64,000 nucleotides of DNA from NCBI RefSeq assembly GCF_000026545.1, contig NC_011601.1. One strand, written 5' to 3'. Below are positions 51,805 through 59,455 of the stretch, piece by piece. This stretch comes from Escherichia coli O127:H6 str. E2348/69. GTDB taxonomy: Bacteria; Pseudomonadota; Gammaproteobacteria; Enterobacterales; Enterobacteriaceae. A program made the translations under genes and the position numbers. The notes beneath the pieces were generated by a model that was not told the origin of the DNA, did no database searches, and saw only the letters and a list, made by a program, of their open reading frames with translations. Position 1 is the first letter of the stretch. Each line of letters starts with the position of its first letter.

Positions 51805-52341
51805 ATGCGTCGCGCTAACGATCCGCAACGGCGAGAAAAAATTATCCAGGCCACGCTGGAGGCGGTGAAACTTTACGGAATACATGCTGTTACACACCGC
51901 AAAATTGCTACCCTTGCCGGGGTGCCGTTGGGATCGATGACCTACTATTTTTCAGGCATTGATGAGTTGTTGCTGGAGGCGTTCAGCCGTTTTACTGAGA
52001 TCATGTCCCGGCAATATCAGGCATTTTTTAGCGATGTTAGTGATGCTCCAGGCGCATGCCAGGCTATCACCGATATGATCTACAGCTCACAGGTCGCAAC
52101 GCCGGATAATATGGAGCTGATGTACCAGCTCTACGCGCTGGCTAGCCGAAAACCGCTATTAAAAACGGTAATGCAAAACTGGATGCAGCGCAGTCAACAA
52201 ACGCTCGAACAATGGTTTGAACCCGGAACCGCCCGCGCGCTTGATGCGTTTATTGAGGGGATGACGCTGCATTTTGTCACCGACCGTAAGCCGCTATCAC
52301 GCGAGGAGATTTTGAGGATGGTTGAGAGGATTGCTGGGTAG
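51805..52341 (+). CDS. rcdA: TetR-family transcriptional regulator RcdA
   Basis: Start trimmed to [10 protein letters not shown]... (178 aa); N-terminal TetR HTH. Confidence 0.9.
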
Positions 52342-52445
52342 TAGATAAATTTCAGGCAACAAAAAACCCATTTATGTAAACGGGTTAATGAAAACAATAA
52401 CTTAGAGTAAAAACAATAAGTTGGGTTGGTGGTCAGTGGTGGTTA

Positions 52446-53498
52446 TTACGGGGTAATGCCAACCGCTGCCGCCACTTTGTCGCCACTTGGCAGCGTTGCC
52501 AGAGGATTGAAACGGAGCGCCGTTTCCAGATGATCCGGTGCCAGATGTGCGTAACGCATAGTCATTTTTATATCGTGGTGTCCGAGAATTTTTTGTAAAG
52601 CCAGAATGTTTCCACCCGACATCATGAAGTGCGCCGCAAACGTATGGCGCAGAACGTGTGTGGGTTGACCGCGAGGGAGCACGATAGACGTTTTTTCCAT
52701 CACGGATAAAAATTGAAAATAGCAGTCTGTGAAGAAATTGAACCCATCAAGCGCCATGATCTCTTCGTAAAGCTCTTTACTGATAGGGATGCTTCTGTTT
52801 TTCTTCCCCTTCGCTCTTACAAAGGTAATTCGGTATTTGGTCACCTGTGAGCGGGTAAGATTTACGTCTTCTCGCCAGCGTGCGCCTGTGCTTAAGCATA
52901 TCTTAACTACCAGTGCCAGAATTGGGTCCTGACGTTTGCAATCAGCTAGTAATTCAACAATCTGCTCATGGGTAAGCCATGCCATCTCTTTTTCTGCGAT
53001 GGTGAATTTTCGCATGTTCTCCAGTGGGTTCGGATACGACCATTCGCCCAGGCGGGATAGTTCGCTAAAAACACTACTTAGATAGCTTTGCTCCAGGTTA
53101 ATGGTGACCGGGCTTGCTCCTTTCTTCCATTTCTCACTGAAGTAGATCTCACCTGTCAGGCGTTTATCTCGATAGTGGGCAAACATTTTAGAGGTTAGAT
53201 CAGTTGCAAGGGGATTGCCCAGAGCGTCAACCATCAGCAGCAATTTGTCATAGACATGCTGCCCAGCAGTCAGAGATTTACCATGTAGTTTGAACCATAG
53301 CTCAACCACGTCTTTCAGTGTTCGACGATCCACTGATTCACCCAGCCAGGGCTTTGCTTCGGTTTCTTCCATCGTGTGACGCTCAAAAGCCAGTGCTTCG
53401 CCTTTGGTGGCGAATTGTTTACGCACACGACGCCCACTACGTCCGGCGGGGTAACATTCGCAAAGCCATTTTCCTGTGGTGAGTTTTCGTACTGCCAT
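52446..53498 (-). CDS. int: phage integrase (tyrosine recombinase, P2/186 type)
   Basis: 350 aa; N-terminus MAVRKLTTGKWLCECYPAGRSGRRVRKQFATKGEALAFE and catalytic-domain motifs (LSTGARW, LRHTFAAHFMMSGGNILALQKILGH, MRYAHLAP) match recalled 186 Int. Confidence 0.9.
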   Translation of the reverse strand: MAVRKLTTGKWLCECYPAGRSGRRVRKQFATKGEALAFERHTMEETEAKPWLGESVDRRTLKDVVELWFKLHGKSLTAGQHVYDKLLLMVDALGNPLATDLTSKMFAHYRDKRLTGEIYFSEKWKKGASPVTINLEQSYLSSVFSELSRLGEWSYPNPLENMRKFTIAEKEMAWLTHEQIVELLADCKRQDPILALVVKICLSTGARWREDVNLTRSQVTKYRITFVRAKGKKNRSIPISKELYEEIMALDGFNFFTDCYFQFLSVMEKTSIVLPRGQPTHVLRHTFAAHFMMSGGNILALQKILGHHDIKMTMRYAHLAPDHLETALRFNPLATLPSGDKVAAAVGITP

Positions 53499-53584
53499 AA
53501 TAAAGCCCTCATATCAGAGGGCTAAATTTAACTGTATGTTTGACCAGTGGTCAATGTATGGTTTAGTTTATTCAAACAATGCTT

Positions 53585-55102
53585 TTAATCAAATGATGTG
53601 GCCAGTTCAATTAATTCAATGTAATTATGTAAGGCATAAAAAGATGTATTCAGACCATTCTCTATAAGGGCTCCTTGCAAATACTTTATAGCTGTATCAC
53701 CATCAATAGGGCCTTGTTGAGATATAATCATTAGTGAATTTTGCCCATTGTTTTTTATACTTGATTTAAGCATGTTTATATTATTAATAAAATACAATGC
53801 AACATCTAAGTAATTTATTAATGTTAAATTTATTTTGGGCTCAATCTGTGAGATGAATAATCTACTGCTCGCCGTTCTATAGATATAATTGACACCTATT
53901 CTTTGCTGATTTGTATCAAGATTTAATTCAAGGATGGCTTGAGAAACACCTTTTAAATTGGAGCTTTGCTTTATCGAATCAGTGAAACGTTGTGCTGCAT
54001 TTCTTCGACCAATTAGTCCATCTATAATTTGACGTTCCTTATCATATATAATCATTAGCGAAATTATAAAAATATAATCTACTTTCTTTTTGACTAAATC
54101 AGATTTAAGAATGTCTATTAACCTTTCAGTATTTCGGATTGAGTCTCTTAGATTTAACCCAAATGCTTCAAATACGTTGGAAATATTTATTGAAAAGTCT
54201 TCTAATGTTGCTGTTAGTGGGTGTGTTTTTGATGTGATATTTTCAAAATCGGTACCAATATAATCACCAACAACACCATTAATTAAATCTTTAAGCTCAG
54301 GTTGTTTTAAAGTAAATCTTCTATGAAAAAAACGGCCTAAATAGTCATTTGCGGAAAAATCATTACCGTAAACATTCTTGATTGAATGTTGTAATTGATC
54401 TGTGTCAGTAGCAATAATAAAGACAAAATTTTTAATATCGAATATATGTTTAACAATCTCTAAAAGAGAAATTGCATAATCTGGCCTGCATCTGTCTAAT
54501 TCATCTATAAAGATAAATATAGGACATGAAAAACTATTTTCATATGCCAACCTAGACCATAACGTTAGTTCTTTTTTTAATACCTTAATGCTCTTCAGTT
54601 TTTCCTGGTGTTCCTTCAGCATTATTAATGAGGCTTCTTTGGCTATATCACCTACGTTATCTACTCCTGCATAAGTCTTGATTAGGCCAGATATGATTTC
54701 AGGTAGAACACCTTTTGTAAAGCGTCCGATAGCATGGCCGCTTTGTATCAATCGAGCATCAAGTTTTCCTGCATATGTTTGCAATTGTTGTGACAAAGAA
54801 GAAAAAAGGGTTAAAAATGCATCATCAGAAAAGTCTTGCTTCCAGGCATCAATGTAAACGCATGGGTGTGCATCTTTTATTGAGTTATAAAATCTCTTTA
54901 TGAAAAAACTTTTACCAGCTCCCCATTCTGCATTAAGGTTGATTACCGTGTTGTTCTTTTGCCCCTTTTCCTTAAGATAAAAATATAGATATTCTGCATA
55001 GTGTCTCCGATTAAGTTTGTCTTTGGAAAGAATTTCCTCTTCGTCGTCTAATATAAAGGTAGTTTCTTCATCCCAGTTCCAATTACAATCACCACATTTC
55101 AC
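53585..55102 (-). CDS. KAP-family P-loop NTPase (prophage cargo; candidate anti-phage protein)
   Basis: 505 aa; GTG start with GGAGA RBS; Walker A AEWGAGKS (res 58-65) and Walker B IFIFIDELDRC typical of KAP NTPases; long Asn/Ile/Lys-rich C-terminal region; AT-rich. Confidence 0.7.
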   Translation of the reverse strand: MKCGDCNWNWDEETTFILDDEEEILSKDKLNRRHYAEYLYFYLKEKGQKNNTVINLNAEWGAGKSFFIKRFYNSIKDAHPCVYIDAWKQDFSDDAFLTLFSSLSQQLQTYAGKLDARLIQSGHAIGRFTKGVLPEIISGLIKTYAGVDNVGDIAKEASLIMLKEHQEKLKSIKVLKKELTLWSRLAYENSFSCPIFIFIDELDRCRPDYAISLLEIVKHIFDIKNFVFIIATDTDQLQHSIKNVYGNDFSANDYLGRFFHRRFTLKQPELKDLINGVVGDYIGTDFENITSKTHPLTATLEDFSINISNVFEAFGLNLRDSIRNTERLIDILKSDLVKKKVDYIFIISLMIIYDKERQIIDGLIGRRNAAQRFTDSIKQSSNLKGVSQAILELNLDTNQQRIGVNYIYRTASSRLFISQIEPKINLTLINYLDVALYFINNINMLKSSIKNNGQNSLMIISQQGPIDGDTAIKYLQGALIENGLNTSFYALHNYIELIELATSFD

Positions 55103-55127
55103 TATGAAGTCTCCATGAAAAATTTAC

Positions 55128-56051
55128 TTAATGTAAACAACTTATAATAACTTTTGCAATAAACTCAATGTCTGTAAGCGAACATTCAAAAGAGTGATTT
55201 TGGGATGAAATATAAACTCGTCCTTTAGGTAGTCGAGTTATCATTCTAAATGAATTCTCTCCATCAATATTTACTAGCCACTTACCATCATGTACATCTT
55301 TAAAACCCATTTCACATATTAATTCAGAGTCTTCGGTAGATACTACGAATGCATTTTTTAAATTGGAAGGTAGAAAGCATGGGTCAAATAAATATGAGCC
55401 ATCATTTATTAACTTGCCATTGATTAATACTTTTTTCACTAATGTTAAAGTATCTTTATTTTTTGCGTTTTTCATTTCTCCTGTACCAAATGAAATCCAT
55501 TCAATAGAATGGCCCGTTTCTATTGCACACTGCAAAACCCAGTCTGCAGGAAAAATGTCACGCATGTATCGTGTGGCTAATGTGCTTTTTGAAATACCTA
55601 GGTGATCAGCTAATGCTTGGCGCGTTTTGTAACCGTAAGCCTCGACAATTCGTTCTATTGTTGCCTTACCCCCTCGGTTAAAATTCATGAGTTTTTCATT
55701 ATCGAACTTTATAGTGGGAATGTATACTTCATTGCAAAGGCCATTAACGGCATGTTTTTCAGAATATTGCTCTGATGAAGGAGCAGTATCTGAACCAAGA
55801 ACTAACCATTCAATTGATGCTCCTGTTTCTATGGAACATATAACAACCCAATCTGCAGGAAAGGTATTACGTGCATATCTGTTGGCCATAGTACTTTGGG
55901 AAATACCTAGATGATTACATAATGCCTGTCGTGACTTGAAGCCATAGGCTAGGAGTATACGCTCAATAACTTTTTGCCCTCCACGATTCTGCATAACTAT
56001 TGCTTTCAGATCGTTTTTGATATGGCTAAATTTTAATTTTTGAGTTGACAT
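55128..56051 (-). CDS. CI-like repressor paralog with tandemly duplicated N-terminal DNA-binding domain
   Basis: 307 aa; residues ~20-85 and ~120-190 are two copies of the domain (IERxxxAYGxKxRQALxxHLGISxSTxAxRYxRxxFPAxWVxxCxxETGxSxxWL) found once in the adjacent CI; C-terminal domain is paralogous to the CI C-terminus. Start could alternatively be the Met at residue 20. Confidence 0.75.
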   Translation of the reverse strand: MSTQKLKFSHIKNDLKAIVMQNRGGQKVIERILLAYGFKSRQALCNHLGISQSTMANRYARNTFPADWVVICSIETGASIEWLVLGSDTAPSSEQYSEKHAVNGLCNEVYIPTIKFDNEKLMNFNRGGKATIERIVEAYGYKTRQALADHLGISKSTLATRYMRDIFPADWVLQCAIETGHSIEWISFGTGEMKNAKNKDTLTLVKKVLINGKLINDGSYLFDPCFLPSNLKNAFVVSTEDSELICEMGFKDVHDGKWLVNIDGENSFRMITRLPKGRVYISSQNHSFECSLTDIEFIAKVIISCLH

Positions 56052-56101
56052 ATTTTTTACACCACAACAAATGCTTTACCAAGCATAAAAACATTCCTAT
56101 A

Positions 56102-56677
56102 TTACTCAAAGTACTTAACTGTTATGCTTATAATTTTTCCAATAATTTCGATTTCTTCTTTTTTACATTCGAAAGCCCTATTTCCACCTTCAACTAAGAT
56201 TCTTCCACCAGGTAAACGAGTGATATCGCGGATTGTTACTTCGGCATCAATACTTATTACCCATTTGCCGTCACGAATATCGTTAAACTCTTTATCGCAA
56301 ATAAAAACGGAATTGTTATCGGTGATTACAAACGGATTTTTGAGCGTAGATGGTAGAAATTCTTTATCGAAAATATAAAAACCATCTTCCTGCAAGGTTC
56401 CATCAGATAATACATATTTAACGACTTCCATAGTATTTGTATTACCTGAAGTTTGCTTTGAACCATGTCCGGTCGTGAGCCAGTTAAGCGAGGCGCCCGT
56501 TTCAAGTGCGCACTGGATTACCCATTCAGCAGGGAATGAGTCACGCATATAGCGTGTGGCGAGAGTACTTTTAGAGATTCCTAAGTGATCGCACAACGCC
56601 TGTCGAGTCTTGAAGCCATATGCTTCTACCATGCGCTCTATAGCGCCTCGTCCGCCTTTCTCCAAACTCATGGTCAC
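56102..56677 (-). CDS. cI: prophage immunity repressor CI (186 type)
   Basis: 191 aa; divergent from the apl/cII operon; N-terminal domain resembles recalled 186 CI (...AYGF...CALETGA..W..TG); start may be the ATG at 56671 instead. Confidence 0.75.
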   Translation of the reverse strand: MTMSLEKGGRGAIERMVEAYGFKTRQALCDHLGISKSTLATRYMRDSFPAEWVIQCALETGASLNWLTTGHGSKQTSGNTNTMEVVKYVLSDGTLQEDGFYIFDKEFLPSTLKNPFVITDNNSVFICDKEFNDIRDGKWVISIDAEVTIRDITRLPGGRILVEGGNRAFECKKEEIEIIGKIISITVKYFE

Positions 56678-56796
56678 TCCAAGTGAACTTTTGTCTTGAC
56701 GATTTCATTATGCGATCGCATGTTTATGGTGTTCACAAAATGCAAACGATCCGTATTCGTCCTGATTAATCAACATTAAACGAGGAATGTTGCATC
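56678..56796. promoter_or_regulatory. prophage immunity switch region (early lytic promoter and candidate CI operators)
   Basis: Divergent intergenic region with TTGACG -35-like hexamer (56696-56701), perfect 12-bp palindrome ATGCGATCGCAT (56710-56721), and flanking inverted repeat GTGAAC...GTTCAC (56683-56688 / 56731-56736). Confidence 0.45.
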
Positions 56797-57018
56797 ATGA
56801 AACCTAACATTTCAATCACTCTTACCACGCCTCATGTGACTATTGAACGTTATAGCGAGCTGACAGGGCTATCCATCGATACTATCAATGACATGTTGGC
56901 TGATGGACGTCTTATCCGTCACCGTCTGCGGAAAGATAAAAAACGCGAAAAAGTGATGATCAACATAGCAGCCATGACCGTTGATGCGCTTTCAGAATGC
57001 AATCTAAACCTTAATTAG
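56797..57018 (+). CDS. Apl/Cox-like HTH excisionase-regulator
   Basis: 73 aa; first gene of the rightward operon with GAGGAA RBS; position matches 186 apl / P2 cox. Confidence 0.55.
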
Positions 57019-57050
57019 TTCGATTCTGAAATACATCAGAGGCATTGACC

Positions 57051-57560
57051 ATGTTTGATTACCAAGTTTCCAAACACCCGCATTTTGATGAAGCCTGTAG
57101 AGCTTTTGCACTTCGTCACAATATGGCGAAGCTGGCAGAACGTGCAGGAATGAATGTCCAGACTCTGCGAAACAAACTCAACCCAGATCAACCGCATCAG
57201 CTCAATGCGCCAGAAATCTGGCTGCTTACCGATCTGACTGAAGATTCAACGCTGGTAGATGGCTTTCTGGCACAGATTCACTGCCTGCCATGTGTACCGA
57301 TTAATGAGGTGGCAAAAGAGAAACTGCCGCATTACGTCATGAGTGCAACTGCAGAGATAGGGCGTGTCGCGGCAGGTGCGGTTTCTGGCGATGTAAAAAC
57401 CAGTGCAGGCCGTCGTGATGCGATCAGCAGCATTAACTCTGTTACACGACTGATGGCGCTGGCTGCTGTTTCATTGCAGGCCCGTTTACAGGCTAATCCT
57501 GCGATGGCGAGTGCAGTTGATACCGTGACTGGCCTCGGTGCTTCATTCGGTTTGCTGTGA
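57051..57560 (+). CDS. cII: CII-like lysogeny establishment regulator (186 type)
   Basis: Start trimmed to [45 protein letters not shown]...; closely matches recalled 186 CII over its full length. Confidence 0.85.
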
Positions 57561-57567
57561 GGTGCTT

Positions 57568-57768
57568 ATGCTGACGAAAGAACCATCATTTGCATCGCTG
57601 CTGGTAAAACAAAGTCCGGCAATGCACTACGGTCACGGCTGGATCATGGGTGAGGATGGTAAACGCTGGCATCCGTGCCGTTCACAAGATGAATTGCTGG
57701 CAGAACTATCAACGAAAAAACGGGGGAACCAATGGCTATTGAAGGCGCTGCGGCGACTGTTCCATTAA
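57568..57768 (+). CDS. hypothetical phage early protein
   Basis: 66 aa from MLTKEPSF...; sits where 186 carries fil; no recognisable motif. Confidence 0.4.
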   Translation: MLTKEPSFASLLVKQSPAMHYGHGWIMGEDGKRWHPCRSQDELLAELSTKKRGNQWLLKALRRLFH

Positions 57769-58073
57769 GCCCCGGTGAACGCCTGAATGGACTTAATCAT
57801 ATTGCGGAATTAAGAGCGAAAGTTTTTGGCCTGAATATTGAGTCAGAGCTTGAGCGGTTTATTAAAGATATGCGTGATCCACGGGATATCAATAATGAAC
57901 AAAATAAACGGGCACTGGCTGCCATATTCTTTATGGCAAAAATTCCAGCTGAACGTCATAGCATCAGCATTAATGAGCTGACCACTGACGAAAAGCGGGA
58001 GCTGATTAAAGCAATGAATCATTTTCGTGCAGTGGTGAGCTTATTTCCCAGACGGCTAACCATGCCGAATTAA
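57732..58073 (+). CDS. hypothetical phage early protein
   Basis: 113 aa ORF in the early operon; start uncertain (overlaps previous gene by 37 nt). Confidence 0.4.
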   Translation: MAIEGAAATVPLSPGERLNGLNHIAELRAKVFGLNIESELERFIKDMRDPRDINNEQNKRALAAIFFMAKIPAERHSISINELTTDEKRELIKAMNHFRAVVSLFPRRLTMPN

Positions 58074-58374: not shown

Positions 58375-58601
58375 TGGCTGATGCAATGGATCTCGTACAG
58401 CAGCGCGTTGAAGAAGAACGCCAGCGTCATATCCGTGCTGCCCGCGCCAAAACGCCGGGCGTATCCCGCGTGCTTTGCATTGAGTGTGAAGCACCAATTC
58501 CGCCAGCACGACGTCGCGCCATTCCGGGTGTGCAGCTTTGCATTACCTGTCAGGAAATCGCAGAGCTGAAAGGCAAACATTACAACGGAGGTGCTGTATG
58601 A
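58374..58601 (+). CDS. phage TraR/DksA-family C4 zinc-finger protein
   Basis: 75 aa; CIECEAPIPPARRRAIPGVQLCITCQ is paralogous to chromosomal YbiI (CEECGAPIPQARREAIPGVRLCIHCQ). Confidence 0.75.
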   Translation: MADAMDLVQQRVEEERQRHIRAARAKTPGVSRVLCIECEAPIPPARRRAIPGVQLCITCQEIAELKGKHYNGGAV

Positions 58602-59455
58602 GCACCATCCTGAAATGGGCGGGTAATAAAACCGCCATTATGCCAGAACTGAAAAAATACCTTCCTGCTGGCCCGCGACTGGTTGAACCTTTCGCGGGTT
58701 CTTGTGCTGTGATGATAGAGACGGATTACCCCAGCTATCTTGTTGCGGATATTAATCCTGATTTAATCAACCTCTATAAAAAGGTTGCTGCTGATTGCGA
58801 GGCGTTTATATCTCGTGCCAGAGCTTTATTTGAGGAAGCAAACAGGGAGGTGGCTTATTACAACATAAGGCAGGAGTTTAATTACTCCACTGAAATTACT
58901 GATTTCATGAAAGCGGTATATTTCCTGTATCTCAATCGTCATGGTTACCGTGGGTTATGTCGCTATAACAAGAGCGGGCATTTCAACATTCCCTACGGGA
59001 ATTATAAAAATCCGTATTTCCCTGAAAAAGAAATTCGCAAATTTGCAGAAAAAGCCCAGCGAGCAACGTTTATCTGCGCCAGCTTTGATGAAACGCTGGC
59101 GATGTTGAAGGCGGGGGATGTGGTGTATTGCGATCCGCCTTATGACGGTACGTTTTCCGGCTATCACACTGATGGCTTCACTGAGGATGACCAGTATCAC
59201 CTGGCATCCGTTCTTGAACATCGATCATCTGAAGGTCATCCGGTCATTGTTTCTAACAGTGACACATCCCTGATTCGTTCGCTGTATCGCAATTTCACTC
59301 ACCACTACATCAAGGCAAAACGCAGCATCGGCGTGTCGGCTGGCGAGAGTAAATCTGCAACAGAAATCATTGCTGTTTCCGGGGCGCGCTGCTGGGTGGG
59401 ATTTGATCCTTCGCGTGGCGTGGATAGTTCTGCTGTGTACGAGGTGCGTGTATGA
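58598..59455 (+). CDS. dam: phage DNA adenine methyltransferase (Dam-like)
   Basis: 285 aa from [12 protein letters not shown]... with GGAGG RBS; FAGSCAV SAM-binding motif and DPPY catalytic motif. Confidence 0.85.

What the first reader, a model, noticed from the sequence alone, without database searches (positions are those of the whole stretch)
53585..56677. Lysogeny-operon cargo: cI - duplicated-HTH CI paralog - KAP NTPase - int, arranged like lambda cI-rexAB
Between the canonical repressor and the integrase, where 186-type phages as I recall them have no cargo, sit two AT-rich co-oriented genes: a CI paralog with two DNA-binding domains, and 25 bp downstream a KAP P-loop NTPase. All four genes are on the minus strand with short spacers, so the cargo would be transcribed with the repressor in the lysogen, as for abortive-infection modules such as lambda RexAB. 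I consider this the best candidate in the window for an undescribed two-gene anti-phage or superinfection-exclusion system.
Basis: partly seen in the sequence, partly recalled or inferred. Interest (0 to 1): 0.85.

Follow-up and report, generated by a model that had tools for sequence, protein, structure and literature searches.

The report
Prophage defence gene plus captured second repressor
A 186-like prophage of E. coli E2348/69 carries, between its repressor and integrase genes, a likely single-gene anti-phage NTPase and a spare repressor picked up from a rival phage; the two are neighbours by recombination, not partners in a new two-gene system.

Summary
On the minus strand lie cI, a CI with two HTH domains, a KAP P-loop NTPase and int, with spacers of 50, 25 and 86 nt. 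The two middle genes are AT-rich (32-36% GC).

The interpretation as an undescribed two-gene system does not hold.
- Orthologues of the NTPase (51-79% identity) sit in the same cI-int slot of Klebsiella, Enterobacter, Yersinia and other prophages, after an ordinary single-HTH cI. None has the tandem CI.
- 77 of 80 distant relatives have no CI within 10 kb.
- The NTPase matches PADLOC's single-gene candidate PDC-S20 (E 5e-78), which is predicted but untested.
- The tandem-HTH CI belongs to a large family. In Klebsiella phage 4LV2017 and in E. coli and Salmonella prophages it is the sole repressor beside apl/cII, followed by other cargo such as PD-T4-2 and PDC-M11.
- Breakpoints show a 2.5 kb cassette (53561-56060) replacing a ydcA-like gene. 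The double-CI layout occurs in only 16 of 5,426 E. coli genomes, all at least 99.6% identical over the two cI genes.

Best reading: the cI-int slot is a defence hotspot. It holds a stand-alone NTPase expressed in the lysogen, plus a stranded repressor that may add immunity to a second phage group. This is a new member of a known kind, of moderate interest.

The parts
52352..52371 (.). attL of the prophage, placed by homology
   Evidence: Window 52353 aligns to position 9 of Klebsiella phage 4LV2017, whose attL is annotated at 8-27. It lies just downstream of host rcdA. A terminator-like hairpin at 52386-52365 (-) follows int.
52446..53498 (-). Tyrosine integrase, the last gene of the lysogenic operon
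   Evidence: PHROG 1 integrase, E 1e-71. 92-98% identical to int of 4LV2017, L085 and L088.
53499..53560 (-). Conserved element upstream of int. It contains the palindrome TTGACCACTGGTCAA and a hairpin AGCCCUC-N6-GAGGGCU followed by a U-rich run and the int ATG. It marks the right edge of the cargo slot.
   Evidence: Conserved in L003, L002 and L085 whatever the cargo. Predicted RNA fold -23.5 kcal/mol, z -3.9. Flagged as terminator-like.
53585..55102 (-). KAP-family P-loop NTPase of 505 aa, of the PADLOC PDC-S20 type. It has a GTG start with GGAG 9 nt upstream. It has no transmembrane helices and carries a family-specific C-terminal domain (about 292-505).
55128..56051 (-). Tandem-HTH CI repressor of 307 aa, with NTD1 1-95, linker, NTD2 122-200 and CTD 201-307. 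It is a mosaic. NTD1 is 80-86% identical to the tandem CIs of 4LV2017, L102 and L104. The CTD is 59-70% identical to the single cI genes that precede KAP orthologues.
53561..56060 (-). The 2.5 kb cassette (tandem cI + KAP) that replaces the ydcA-like cargo of the common E. coli relative
   Evidence: blastn breakpoints against L003: homology covers 52000-53560 and 56061-58000 only.
56057..56086 (-). Nine-codon remnant (MLGKAFVVV*) of the displaced ydcA-like gene. It marks the left junction, 5 nt before the tandem cI ATG.
   Evidence: Sequence comparison with L003, whose YdcA begins MLGKVFFVV.
56102..56671 (-). Resident canonical cI, single HTH, 90% identical to the cI of the common ydcA-carrying prophage
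56672..56796 (.). Switch region (pR/pL and operators) belonging to the canonical cI immunity type
   Evidence: About 94% identical to L003 and unrelated to the 85-bp switch of the tandem-CI phages. Position by analogy with 186.
56797..57560 (+). apl-like and cII genes, the start of the early lytic operon
   Evidence: Same order as in 186.

Best explanation
The cI-int interval of 186-like prophages that insert next to rcdA is a cargo (defence) hotspot. It lies inside the lysogenic operon, upstream of a conserved hairpin that precedes int.

In the E2348/69 allele the slot holds a 2.5 kb recombinant cassette with two functionally independent genes.

1. A soluble KAP-family P-loop NTPase of the PDC-S20 type. 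It most likely acts alone as a lysogen-expressed anti-phage protein. By analogy with PifA and other sensor NTPases, its fast-evolving C-terminal domain would recognise a phage component. NTP-dependent assembly of its RdrA/ORC-like ATPase core would then halt the infected cell.

2. A complete tandem-HTH CI. This is the stranded immunity repressor of another 186-like lineage, carried along because the CI C-terminal domain and the NTPase gene are adjacent and move as one block. Its two recognition helices are 11/12 and 12/12 identical to those of the 4LV2017, L102 and L104 repressors. It therefore probably still binds that group's operators and adds immunity against phages that compete for the same attachment site.

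Shown here: gene content, domain architecture, breakpoints, lack of co-occurrence, and variability of the hotspot.

Inferred: co-transcription from pL, anti-phage activity of the NTPase, its mode of action, and DNA binding by the second repressor.
For: Independence of the two genes:
- KAP orthologues follow a single-HTH cI directly (20-28 nt spacer) and precede int in Klebsiella (79% identity), Enterobacter (62%), L095 (73%) and L097 (70%).
- Yersinia has cI, an unrelated 327-aa protein, KAP, then int.
- In Pectobacterium the gene lies outside any prophage.
- Only 3 of 80 distant relatives have a CI nearby, and that CI is single-HTH or only weakly CI-like.

The tandem CI as a genuine repressor:
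- It is the sole CI beside apl/cII in 4LV2017 and in L102, L103 and L104.
- tblastn finds it with a single full-length (98%) match in 20 deposited Klebsiella phage genomes.
- The protein search returned dozens of clusters of 290-330 aa.

Recombinant origin:
- Breakpoints and the ydcA remnant.
- Domain-wise mosaic.
- The layout is found in 16 of 5,426 genomes, all at least 99.6% identical over the two cI genes; the full 3.4 kb is at least 99.2% identical in the same 16.

Defence hotspot:
- The same slot carries PD-T4-2 A+B, PDC-M11 A+B, YdcA or unknown genes in relatives.
- The hotspot is published for K139-like Vibrio phages, and the interval 'between integrase and primase' is listed as a defence hotspot in P2.

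NTPase as a defence gene:
- PDC-S20, E 5e-78; PifA NTPase module, E 9e-17.
- The best structural matches are the RADAR RdrA rings and BrxC.
- KAP-domain proteins have been shown to defend in other work (EF_KAP; Reve).

Operon:
- In 186, pL transcribes cI-int-orf69 up to a terminator.
- No strong terminator lies between cI and KAP, and the promoter count is no more than chance.
- KAP has a good GGAG ribosome-binding site.

Recognition helices.
Against: - No member of PDC-S20 has been tested, so anti-phage activity is prediction only.
- The C-terminal domain has no structural or sequence relative outside the family. Neither the effector nor the trigger can be named.
- The cassette boundaries enclose exactly the two genes. 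That is what a co-adapted unit would also look like.
- The tandem CI's C-terminal domain differs from those of the phages it would repress (34-41% identity). Its native leader and ribosome-binding site were lost at the junction. Expression and cooperative operator binding are therefore uncertain.
- Its NTD2 helix equals that of the resident cI, so it might act on the resident switch instead.
- I could not define operators.
Confidence: 0.6

Rival explanations
1. The tandem-HTH protein and the KAP NTPase form one two-component anti-phage or exclusion system, with a DNA-binding sensor or regulator and an NTPase effector, co-transcribed with cI like lambda rexAB.
For: - The genes are adjacent, co-oriented and 25 nt apart, both AT-rich, and inherited as one 2.5 kb cassette with exact edges.
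- The CI C-terminal domain lineage is consistently linked to KAP.
Against: - No co-occurrence outside one near-clonal allele.
- In the other prophages with close orthologues the gene before KAP is the phage's only, ordinary cI (Yersinia has one unrelated gene between them). The linkage is therefore positional: the cI 3' end and its neighbour move together.
- The tandem CI is the primary repressor elsewhere, with unrelated cargo.
- PADLOC models the NTPase family as a single-gene candidate.
Confidence: 0.07
2. The NTPase is a stand-alone defence gene, but the tandem CI is a functionless hitch-hiker. Alternatively it only perturbs the resident switch through its shared NTD2 helix, and gives no extra immunity.
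For: - It lost its own leader and operators at the junction.
- The event is recent and near-clonal, so selection has had little time to remove it.
- L097 shows that cI fragments do get stranded in this slot.
Against: - The ORF is intact in all 16 genomes and annotated as a full CDS.
- All three domains score strongly in Pfam.
- The recognition helices are conserved.
- It lies in a transcribed operon, and a 5-nt gap after the upstream mini-ORF allows reinitiation.
Confidence: 0.22
3. The NTPase is not an anti-phage gene. It serves the prophage or host in another way, for example lysogen fitness, control of induction, or exclusion of plasmids or satellites.
For: - No experimental data exist for the family.
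- No recognisable effector domain.
- The slot also holds non-defence-looking cargo such as the small secreted YdcA-like protein.
Against: - The family was first flagged because members are embedded in BREX, DISARM or RM loci.
- The slot holds validated or candidate defence systems in sister prophages.
- The closest folds are defence ATPases.
- KAP-domain proteins defend in several experiments.
Confidence: 0.11

Closest known systems
PADLOC PDC-S20 (single-gene 'phage defence candidate', found by guilt-by-embedding; Payne et al. preprint 10.1101/2024.01.29.577857)
   Same: - The best HMM (PDLC04959) matches residues 20-389 at E 5e-78, and three further PDC-S20 models also match.
- It is modelled as a single gene, which agrees with the stand-alone contexts found here.
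   Different: - The last 115 or so residues fall outside the HMM match.
- The candidate family is untested.
- Here the gene sits in a prophage lysogenic operon, not embedded in a BREX, DISARM or RM locus.
PifA of the F plasmid (KAP-family NTPase; T7 exclusion by membrane depolarisation and nucleotide leakage)
   Same: - KAP P-loop module (PADLOC PifA HMM, E 9e-17, over residues 26-274).
- Lacks transmembrane helices, like PifA.
- Carried by a mobile element and expressed constitutively.
   Different: - Only 262 of 720 profile positions align.
- tblastn against 72,556 plasmid records lists no Escherichia or F-type pifA match at E <= 1e-5.
- The C-terminal region is unrelated. This is an analogue, not an orthologue.
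Other KAP-domain defence proteins: Reve (P4 hotspot, 2026 preprint), EF_KAP (Enterococcus), and QatA of the Qat system
   Same: - P-loop of KAP type.
- Reve and EF_KAP defend as single genes, and EF_KAP needs its Walker B motif.
   Different: - Reve aligns only over about 50-90 residues around the P-loop (blastp E 8e-4; profile 14 bits).
- EF_KAP has transmembrane helices.
- The QatA NCBIfam score is 43 bits against a cut-off of 600, and no qatBCD genes are present.
cI-int defence hotspot of P2-related prophages (Rousset et al. [quoted passage not shown]
   Same: - Variable cargo between the repressor and the integrase, flanked by conserved phage genes.
- Confirmed here for the enterobacterial 186-like lineage at rcdA, with PD-T4-2, PDC-M11, KAP and YdcA as alternatives.
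- Vibrio maritimus L053 carries a KAP relative in that very slot.
   Different: The E2348/69 allele also contains a whole second repressor gene, which those papers do not describe in the passages I read.
Phage 186 CI and the tandem-HTH CI of Klebsiella phage 4LV2017 (Elveevirus)
   Same: - Both window repressors have the 186 CI domains (PF07022 and PF16452).
- The 307-aa protein is 62% identical over its full length to the 4LV2017 CI.
   Different: - 186 CI has one HTH domain.
- In 4LV2017 the tandem CI is the only repressor and abuts the switch.
- In the window it lies downstream of another cI and lacks its own switch.
Lambda rexAB (abortive-infection genes co-transcribed with cI)
   Same: Exclusion cargo placed in the repressor's operon, so that it is made in the lysogen. 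This is inferred from the 186 operon map and from my own knowledge of lambda.
   Different: - No sequence or domain relation.
- RexA and RexB need each other, whereas the two genes here do not co-occur.

Membership tests
KAP family P-loop NTPase (Pfam PF07693) | Significant match to the family HMM | tested here: met
   E 1.2e-45, residues 32-293, model positions 1-248 of 293.
KAP family P-loop NTPase (Pfam PF07693) | Walker A GxxGxGK[ST] and Walker B hhhhDE motifs conserved | tested here: met
   AEWGAGKS (K64) and FIFIDELD (D200/E201) are invariant in 66 homologues.
KAP family P-loop NTPase (Pfam PF07693) | Transmembrane helices. These are typical of many KAP proteins but absent in PifA. | tested here: not met
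   The highest 19-residue Kyte-Doolittle mean is 1.43, and that segment is a beta-strand/helix of the ATPase core. PifA also lacks them, so this does not exclude membership.
PADLOC PDC-S20 | Match to the PDC-S20 HMMs | tested here: met
   Four PDC-S20 models match, the best at E 5.1e-78 covering profile positions 11-382 of 464. PADLOC's own coverage thresholds were not available.
PADLOC PDC-S20 | Works as a single gene with no obligate partner | tested here: met
   No conserved neighbour other than cI and int across Klebsiella, Enterobacter, Yersinia, Pectobacterium and 80 distant loci.
PADLOC PDC-S20 | Anti-phage activity | not testable with these tools
   The candidates are stated to be untested.
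PifA (F-plasmid T7 exclusion protein) | Full-length orthology to PifA | tested here: not met
   The HMM match is limited to the NTPase module (profile positions 15-262 of 720). The tblastn summary and the listed rows show no Escherichia or F-type pifA hit among 72,556 plasmid records.
QatA (Qat system) | NCBIfam equivalog score at or above the cut-off, and qatBCD neighbours | tested here: not met
   43.4 bits against a cut-off of 600. The neighbours are cI and int.
Two-gene defence system (tandem CI + KAP) | The two genes co-occur in independent lineages | tested here: not met
   They co-occur only in 16 E. coli genomes that are at least 99.6% identical over the two cI genes. They are absent together in all other KAP contexts and in all the tandem-CI contexts examined.
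186-type CI immunity repressor (the 307-aa protein) | N-terminal Phage_CI_repr HTH domain plus Phage_CI_C oligomerisation domain | tested here: met
   Two PF07022 domains (E 1e-25 and 3e-27) and one PF16452 domain (E 2e-25).
186-type CI immunity repressor (the 307-aa protein) | Located divergently beside its own pR/pL switch and apl | tested here: not met
   In the window it lies 724 bp from apl, behind another cI, and homology to the 4LV2017 locus ends 8 bp before its ATG. The feature is met by its relatives in L002, L102 and L104.
186-type CI immunity repressor (the 307-aa protein) | Binds operators and represses a lytic promoter | not testable with these tools
   Only the identity of the recognition helices with the 4LV2017/L102/L104 repressors could be shown. 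The repeat search gave no clear operators.
Prophage defence hotspot (cI-int) | Conserved flanks with variable, often defence-related, content between them | tested here: met
   Alternative cargo in the slot: YdcA, a 349-aa unknown, KAP, KAP plus further genes including PDC-M11A, PDC-M11 A+B, and PD-T4-2 A+B. The right edge is a conserved element upstream of int.

The most novel reading that the evidence does not exclude
In this one lineage the two genes may have become a working pair after all, as a layered exclusion cassette. The captured tandem-HTH repressor would silence incoming 4LV2017-type phages that compete for the same attB. When those phages titrate or inactivate it (through an antirepressor or Apl), it would license or release the NTPase. 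That would make a repressor-guarded KAP abortive-infection switch.

A weaker version is that the tandem ('single-chain dimer') CI is an undescribed variant of the 186 genetic switch, and a prophage can acquire a whole second repressor to extend its immunity.
Probability: 0.07. Interest if true: 0.75.

Novelty: new member of a known kind. Interest (0 to 1): 0.35.

Why it matters
- It gives a concrete, cheap test case for an untested PADLOC candidate family (PDC-S20), in a well-studied pathogen strain with a native promoter context. A positive result would add a soluble KAP NTPase with a private C-terminal domain to the validated defence repertoire.
- It extends the published cI-int hotspot from Vibrio K139-like phages to the large enterobacterial 186-like group that inserts at rcdA.
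- The intact second repressor is a tidy natural example of how recombination within cI moves cargo between heteroimmune phages. It may also widen a lysogen's immunity.
- None of this overturns current views.

Tried and rejected
- **Operators.** I looked for repeats in 55900-57700 and compared switch regions. GTGAAC-like motifs recur, but no defensible operator set emerged, so binding targets of the tandem CI remain inferred.
- **Reve.** I recovered the Reve sequence from the supplement of the 2026 preprint. It shares only the P-loop with the window protein, so I rejected 'this is Reve'.
- **PifA and QatA membership.** Both rejected.
- **Solved structures.** A sequence search with the family profile gave no hit.
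- **RNA features.** Rfam and tRNA scans of 50-58 kb found nothing.
- **Promoter scan.** No better than chance (16 found against 15.9 expected), so it neither supports nor excludes internal promoters.
- **Parental arrangement.** I found no prophage with the predicted parent layout of a tandem CI as sole repressor followed by KAP. The nearest other tandem CIs are at most 62% identical.
- **Genome-collection scan.** Close orthologue contexts came from exact-protein look-ups instead.
Full report
**Source and observation**

The window is E. coli O127:H6 E2348/69 (NZ_LT827011.1 800001-864000). A 186-like prophage begins just after host rcdA. Its attL falls at about 52352-52371, placed by homology to the annotated attL of Klebsiella phage 4LV2017.

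On the minus strand lie four genes:
- int, 52446-53498
- a 505-aa KAP NTPase, 53585-55102
- a 307-aa CI, 55128-56051
- the canonical cI, 56102-56671

apl-like, cII and fil run the other way. Pfam confirms KAP_NTPase (E 1.2e-45), and two Phage_CI_repr domains plus one Phage_CI_C domain in the 307-aa protein. The cargo is AT-rich: KAP 31.9% and tandem CI 35.5% GC, against 48-53% for neighbouring phage and host genes. The Walker A lysine is K64. Phage 186 itself has cI abutting int.

**Is the pair a system?**

I asked where each gene occurs elsewhere.

The NTPase has close orthologues throughout Enterobacterales. Exact-protein look-ups gave these layouts:
- cI (186-188 aa, single HTH), KAP, int in Klebsiella (79% identity), Enterobacter (62%) and an unnamed Logan assembly with the same host flank (73%).
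- The same start in a JGI metagenome contig (70%), where more cargo and a 50-aa CI C-terminal fragment follow.
- cI, an unrelated 327-aa protein, KAP, int in Yersinia (51%).
- A non-prophage island in Pectobacterium (48%).

Of 80 distant relatives fetched with 10 kb flanks, only Hafnia, Lelliottia and a Vibrio have a CI or int nearby, and that CI is single-HTH or only weakly CI-like. Several further KAP clusters share their longest-contig length with 186-197-aa cI clusters (27402, 11797, 42836, 3111, 4512, 114093, 2546, 2597). None shares it with a tandem CI. This is a rough indicator only.

The tandem-HTH CI, for its part, belongs to a large family of 290-330-aa proteins. It is the only repressor, directly beside apl/cII, in these cases:
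- Klebsiella phage 4LV2017.
- E. coli prophages L102 and L103.
- Salmonella prophage L104.
- tblastn also finds it with a single full-length (98%) match in 20 deposited Klebsiella phage genomes.

Downstream of it these phages carry other cargo: a 349-aa unknown, PDC-M11 A+B, or PD-T4-2 A+B.

The double-CI layout exists in only 16 of 5,426 complete E. coli genomes, all at least 99.6% identical over the two cI genes. The full 3.4 kb is at least 99.2% identical in the same 16 genomes.

**How the arrangement arose**

Compared with the common E. coli prophage at the same site (L003: cI, ydcA-like, int), homology covers window 52000-53560 and 56061-58000. Positions 53561-56060 replace the ydcA-like gene. 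Nine codons of that gene (MLGKAFVVV*) survive at 56057-56086, 5 nt before the tandem cI start.

Compared with Klebsiella L085, homology runs unbroken from int through KAP into the CI C-terminal domain and NTD2 (52487-55646). Compared with 4LV2017 it covers NTD1, the linker and NTD2 (55484-56059). Domain by domain:
- NTD1 is 80-86% identical to other tandem CIs.
- The C-terminal domain is 59-70% identical to the single cI genes that precede KAP orthologues.
- The C-terminal domain is only 34-41% identical to other tandem CIs and 49% to the resident cI.

The 307-aa gene is therefore a mosaic whose 3' half travels with KAP. The apparent linkage of a CI to KAP is positional. The stacked cargo and stranded CI fragment in L097 show the same process.

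**The slot**

The right edge of the slot is a conserved 60-nt element before int, present whatever the cargo. It holds a palindrome and a stable hairpin (-23.5 kcal/mol, z -3.9). The 3' arm of the hairpin is the int Shine-Dalgarno sequence, and a U-run follows it.

In 186, the pL transcript covers cI, int and orf69 up to a terminator. In the window the only other terminator-like sites on that strand are a weak one inside the tandem cI and one after int. KAP has a GGAG ribosome-binding site. Expression of the cargo in the lysogen is thus a reasonable inference, not a demonstration.

A cI-int hotspot was reported for K139-like Vibrio prophages (PMC9122126). [quoted passage not shown]

**What the NTPase is**

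PADLOC assigns it to PDC-S20 (E 5e-78), with weaker matches to the NTPase modules of PifA and QatA. PDC-S20 is one of 145 untested candidates found by guilt-by-embedding.

It is not PifA, QatA or Reve:
- The PifA HMM match covers only 262 of 720 profile positions, and tblastn lists no Escherichia or F-type pifA match among 72,556 plasmid records.
- The QatA score is 43 bits against a cut-off of 600.
- Reve, a validated KAP-domain gene from P4 hotspots, has only the P-loop in common.

The protein has no transmembrane segment. An AlphaFold model (pLDDT 82) most resembles the ring-forming RADAR ATPase RdrA, then BrxC, ORC/Cdc6 and RuvB.

The mechanism I commit to, by analogy, is this. A phage product is sensed by the variable C-terminal domain. 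NTP-dependent assembly follows, and then arrest or death of the infected cell. PifA, the characterised soluble KAP protein, does this by membrane depolarisation and nucleotide leakage. EF_KAP needs its Walker B motif. The effector step is unknown.

**What the second repressor may do**

Phages 4LV2017, L102 and L104 have nearly the same 85-bp cI-apl switch and the same recognition helices (NTD1 SQSTMANRYARD, NTD2 SKSTLATRYMRD). The window protein has SQSTMANRYARN and SKSTLATRYMRD. These phages use integrases 92-98% identical to the resident one and the same insertion site.

An intact copy of their repressor in the lysogenic operon would plausibly make the lysogen immune to them. I give that about even odds. 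Three points count against it:
- The gene lost its own leader.
- Its C-terminal domain differs from theirs.
- Its NTD2 helix equals that of the resident cI, so cross-talk with the resident switch is possible.

I found no paper describing the tandem-HTH CI architecture in the searchable library.

**Verdict**

The sequence facts are right. The proposed undescribed two-gene system is not supported. What is there is a defence-hotspot allele: a stand-alone candidate defence NTPase that is catalogued but untested, with a recombination-stranded repressor next to it. It is a new member of a known kind. Interest is 0.35, mainly as a ready test of PDC-S20 and of captured immunity.

Noticed in passing
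window 53499-53560 (minus strand): A conserved element lies immediately upstream of int. It contains the palindrome TTGACCACTGGTCAA and a hairpin AGCCCUC-N6-GAGGGCU whose 3' arm is the int Shine-Dalgarno sequence, followed by a U-run and the ATG. It is conserved in relatives with different cargo and is predicted to be stable (z -3.9). It may terminate or translationally attenuate the lysogenic transcript before int.
   Followed up: partly
window 55128-56051; L002 2903-3844; L102 and L104 5001-5951: CI repressors with two tandem 186-type HTH domains ('single-chain dimer') are common and act as the sole repressor in many enterobacterial 186-like phages. Their cI-apl switch is unusually short, about 85 bp. 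I found no description of this architecture in the literature library.
   Followed up: partly
window 56057-56086 (minus strand): A nine-codon remnant (MLGKAFVVV*) of a ydcA-like small secreted-protein gene marks the recombination junction. The intact 63-aa gene fills the slot in the many E. coli genomes listed with this cI/int type.
   Followed up: yes
L097 5001-10527 (JGI metagenome 3300003848): Stacked cargo lies between cI and int: KAP, an 88-aa ORF, a 50-aa CI C-terminal fragment, an 8xMP protein, PDC-M11A and a 125-aa protein. The stranded cI fragment suggests that cargo is swapped by recombination inside cI.
   Followed up: partly
L104 5953-7723 (Salmonella) and L102 7125-8547 (E. coli): Sister prophages carry PD-T4-2 A+B (GmrSD_N + HEPN) or PDC-M11 A+B in the same cI-int slot. 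L102 has an additional 384-aa protein with no Pfam or PADLOC match.
   Followed up: partly
L092 4986-5969 (Yersinia enterocolitica): A 327-aa protein with no Pfam or PADLOC match lies between cI and the KAP orthologue. It could be a lineage-specific partner or separate cargo.
   Followed up: no
L085 7878-9100 (Klebsiella) and L088 8822-10916 (Enterobacter): Extra genes lie beyond int, towards the host TetR-family gene that occupies the rcdA position: a SocA_Panacea-domain protein plus a 249-aa ORF in L085, and an ars operon in L088. Whether they are phage cargo between int and the att site or host genes was not checked. A 2026 preprint mentions the int-att interval as a minor hotspot.
   Followed up: no
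window 58598-59455: A DNA adenine methylase (Dam-like) gene lies in the early operon, just before the replication gene A. It is ordinary for this phage group.
   Followed up: no
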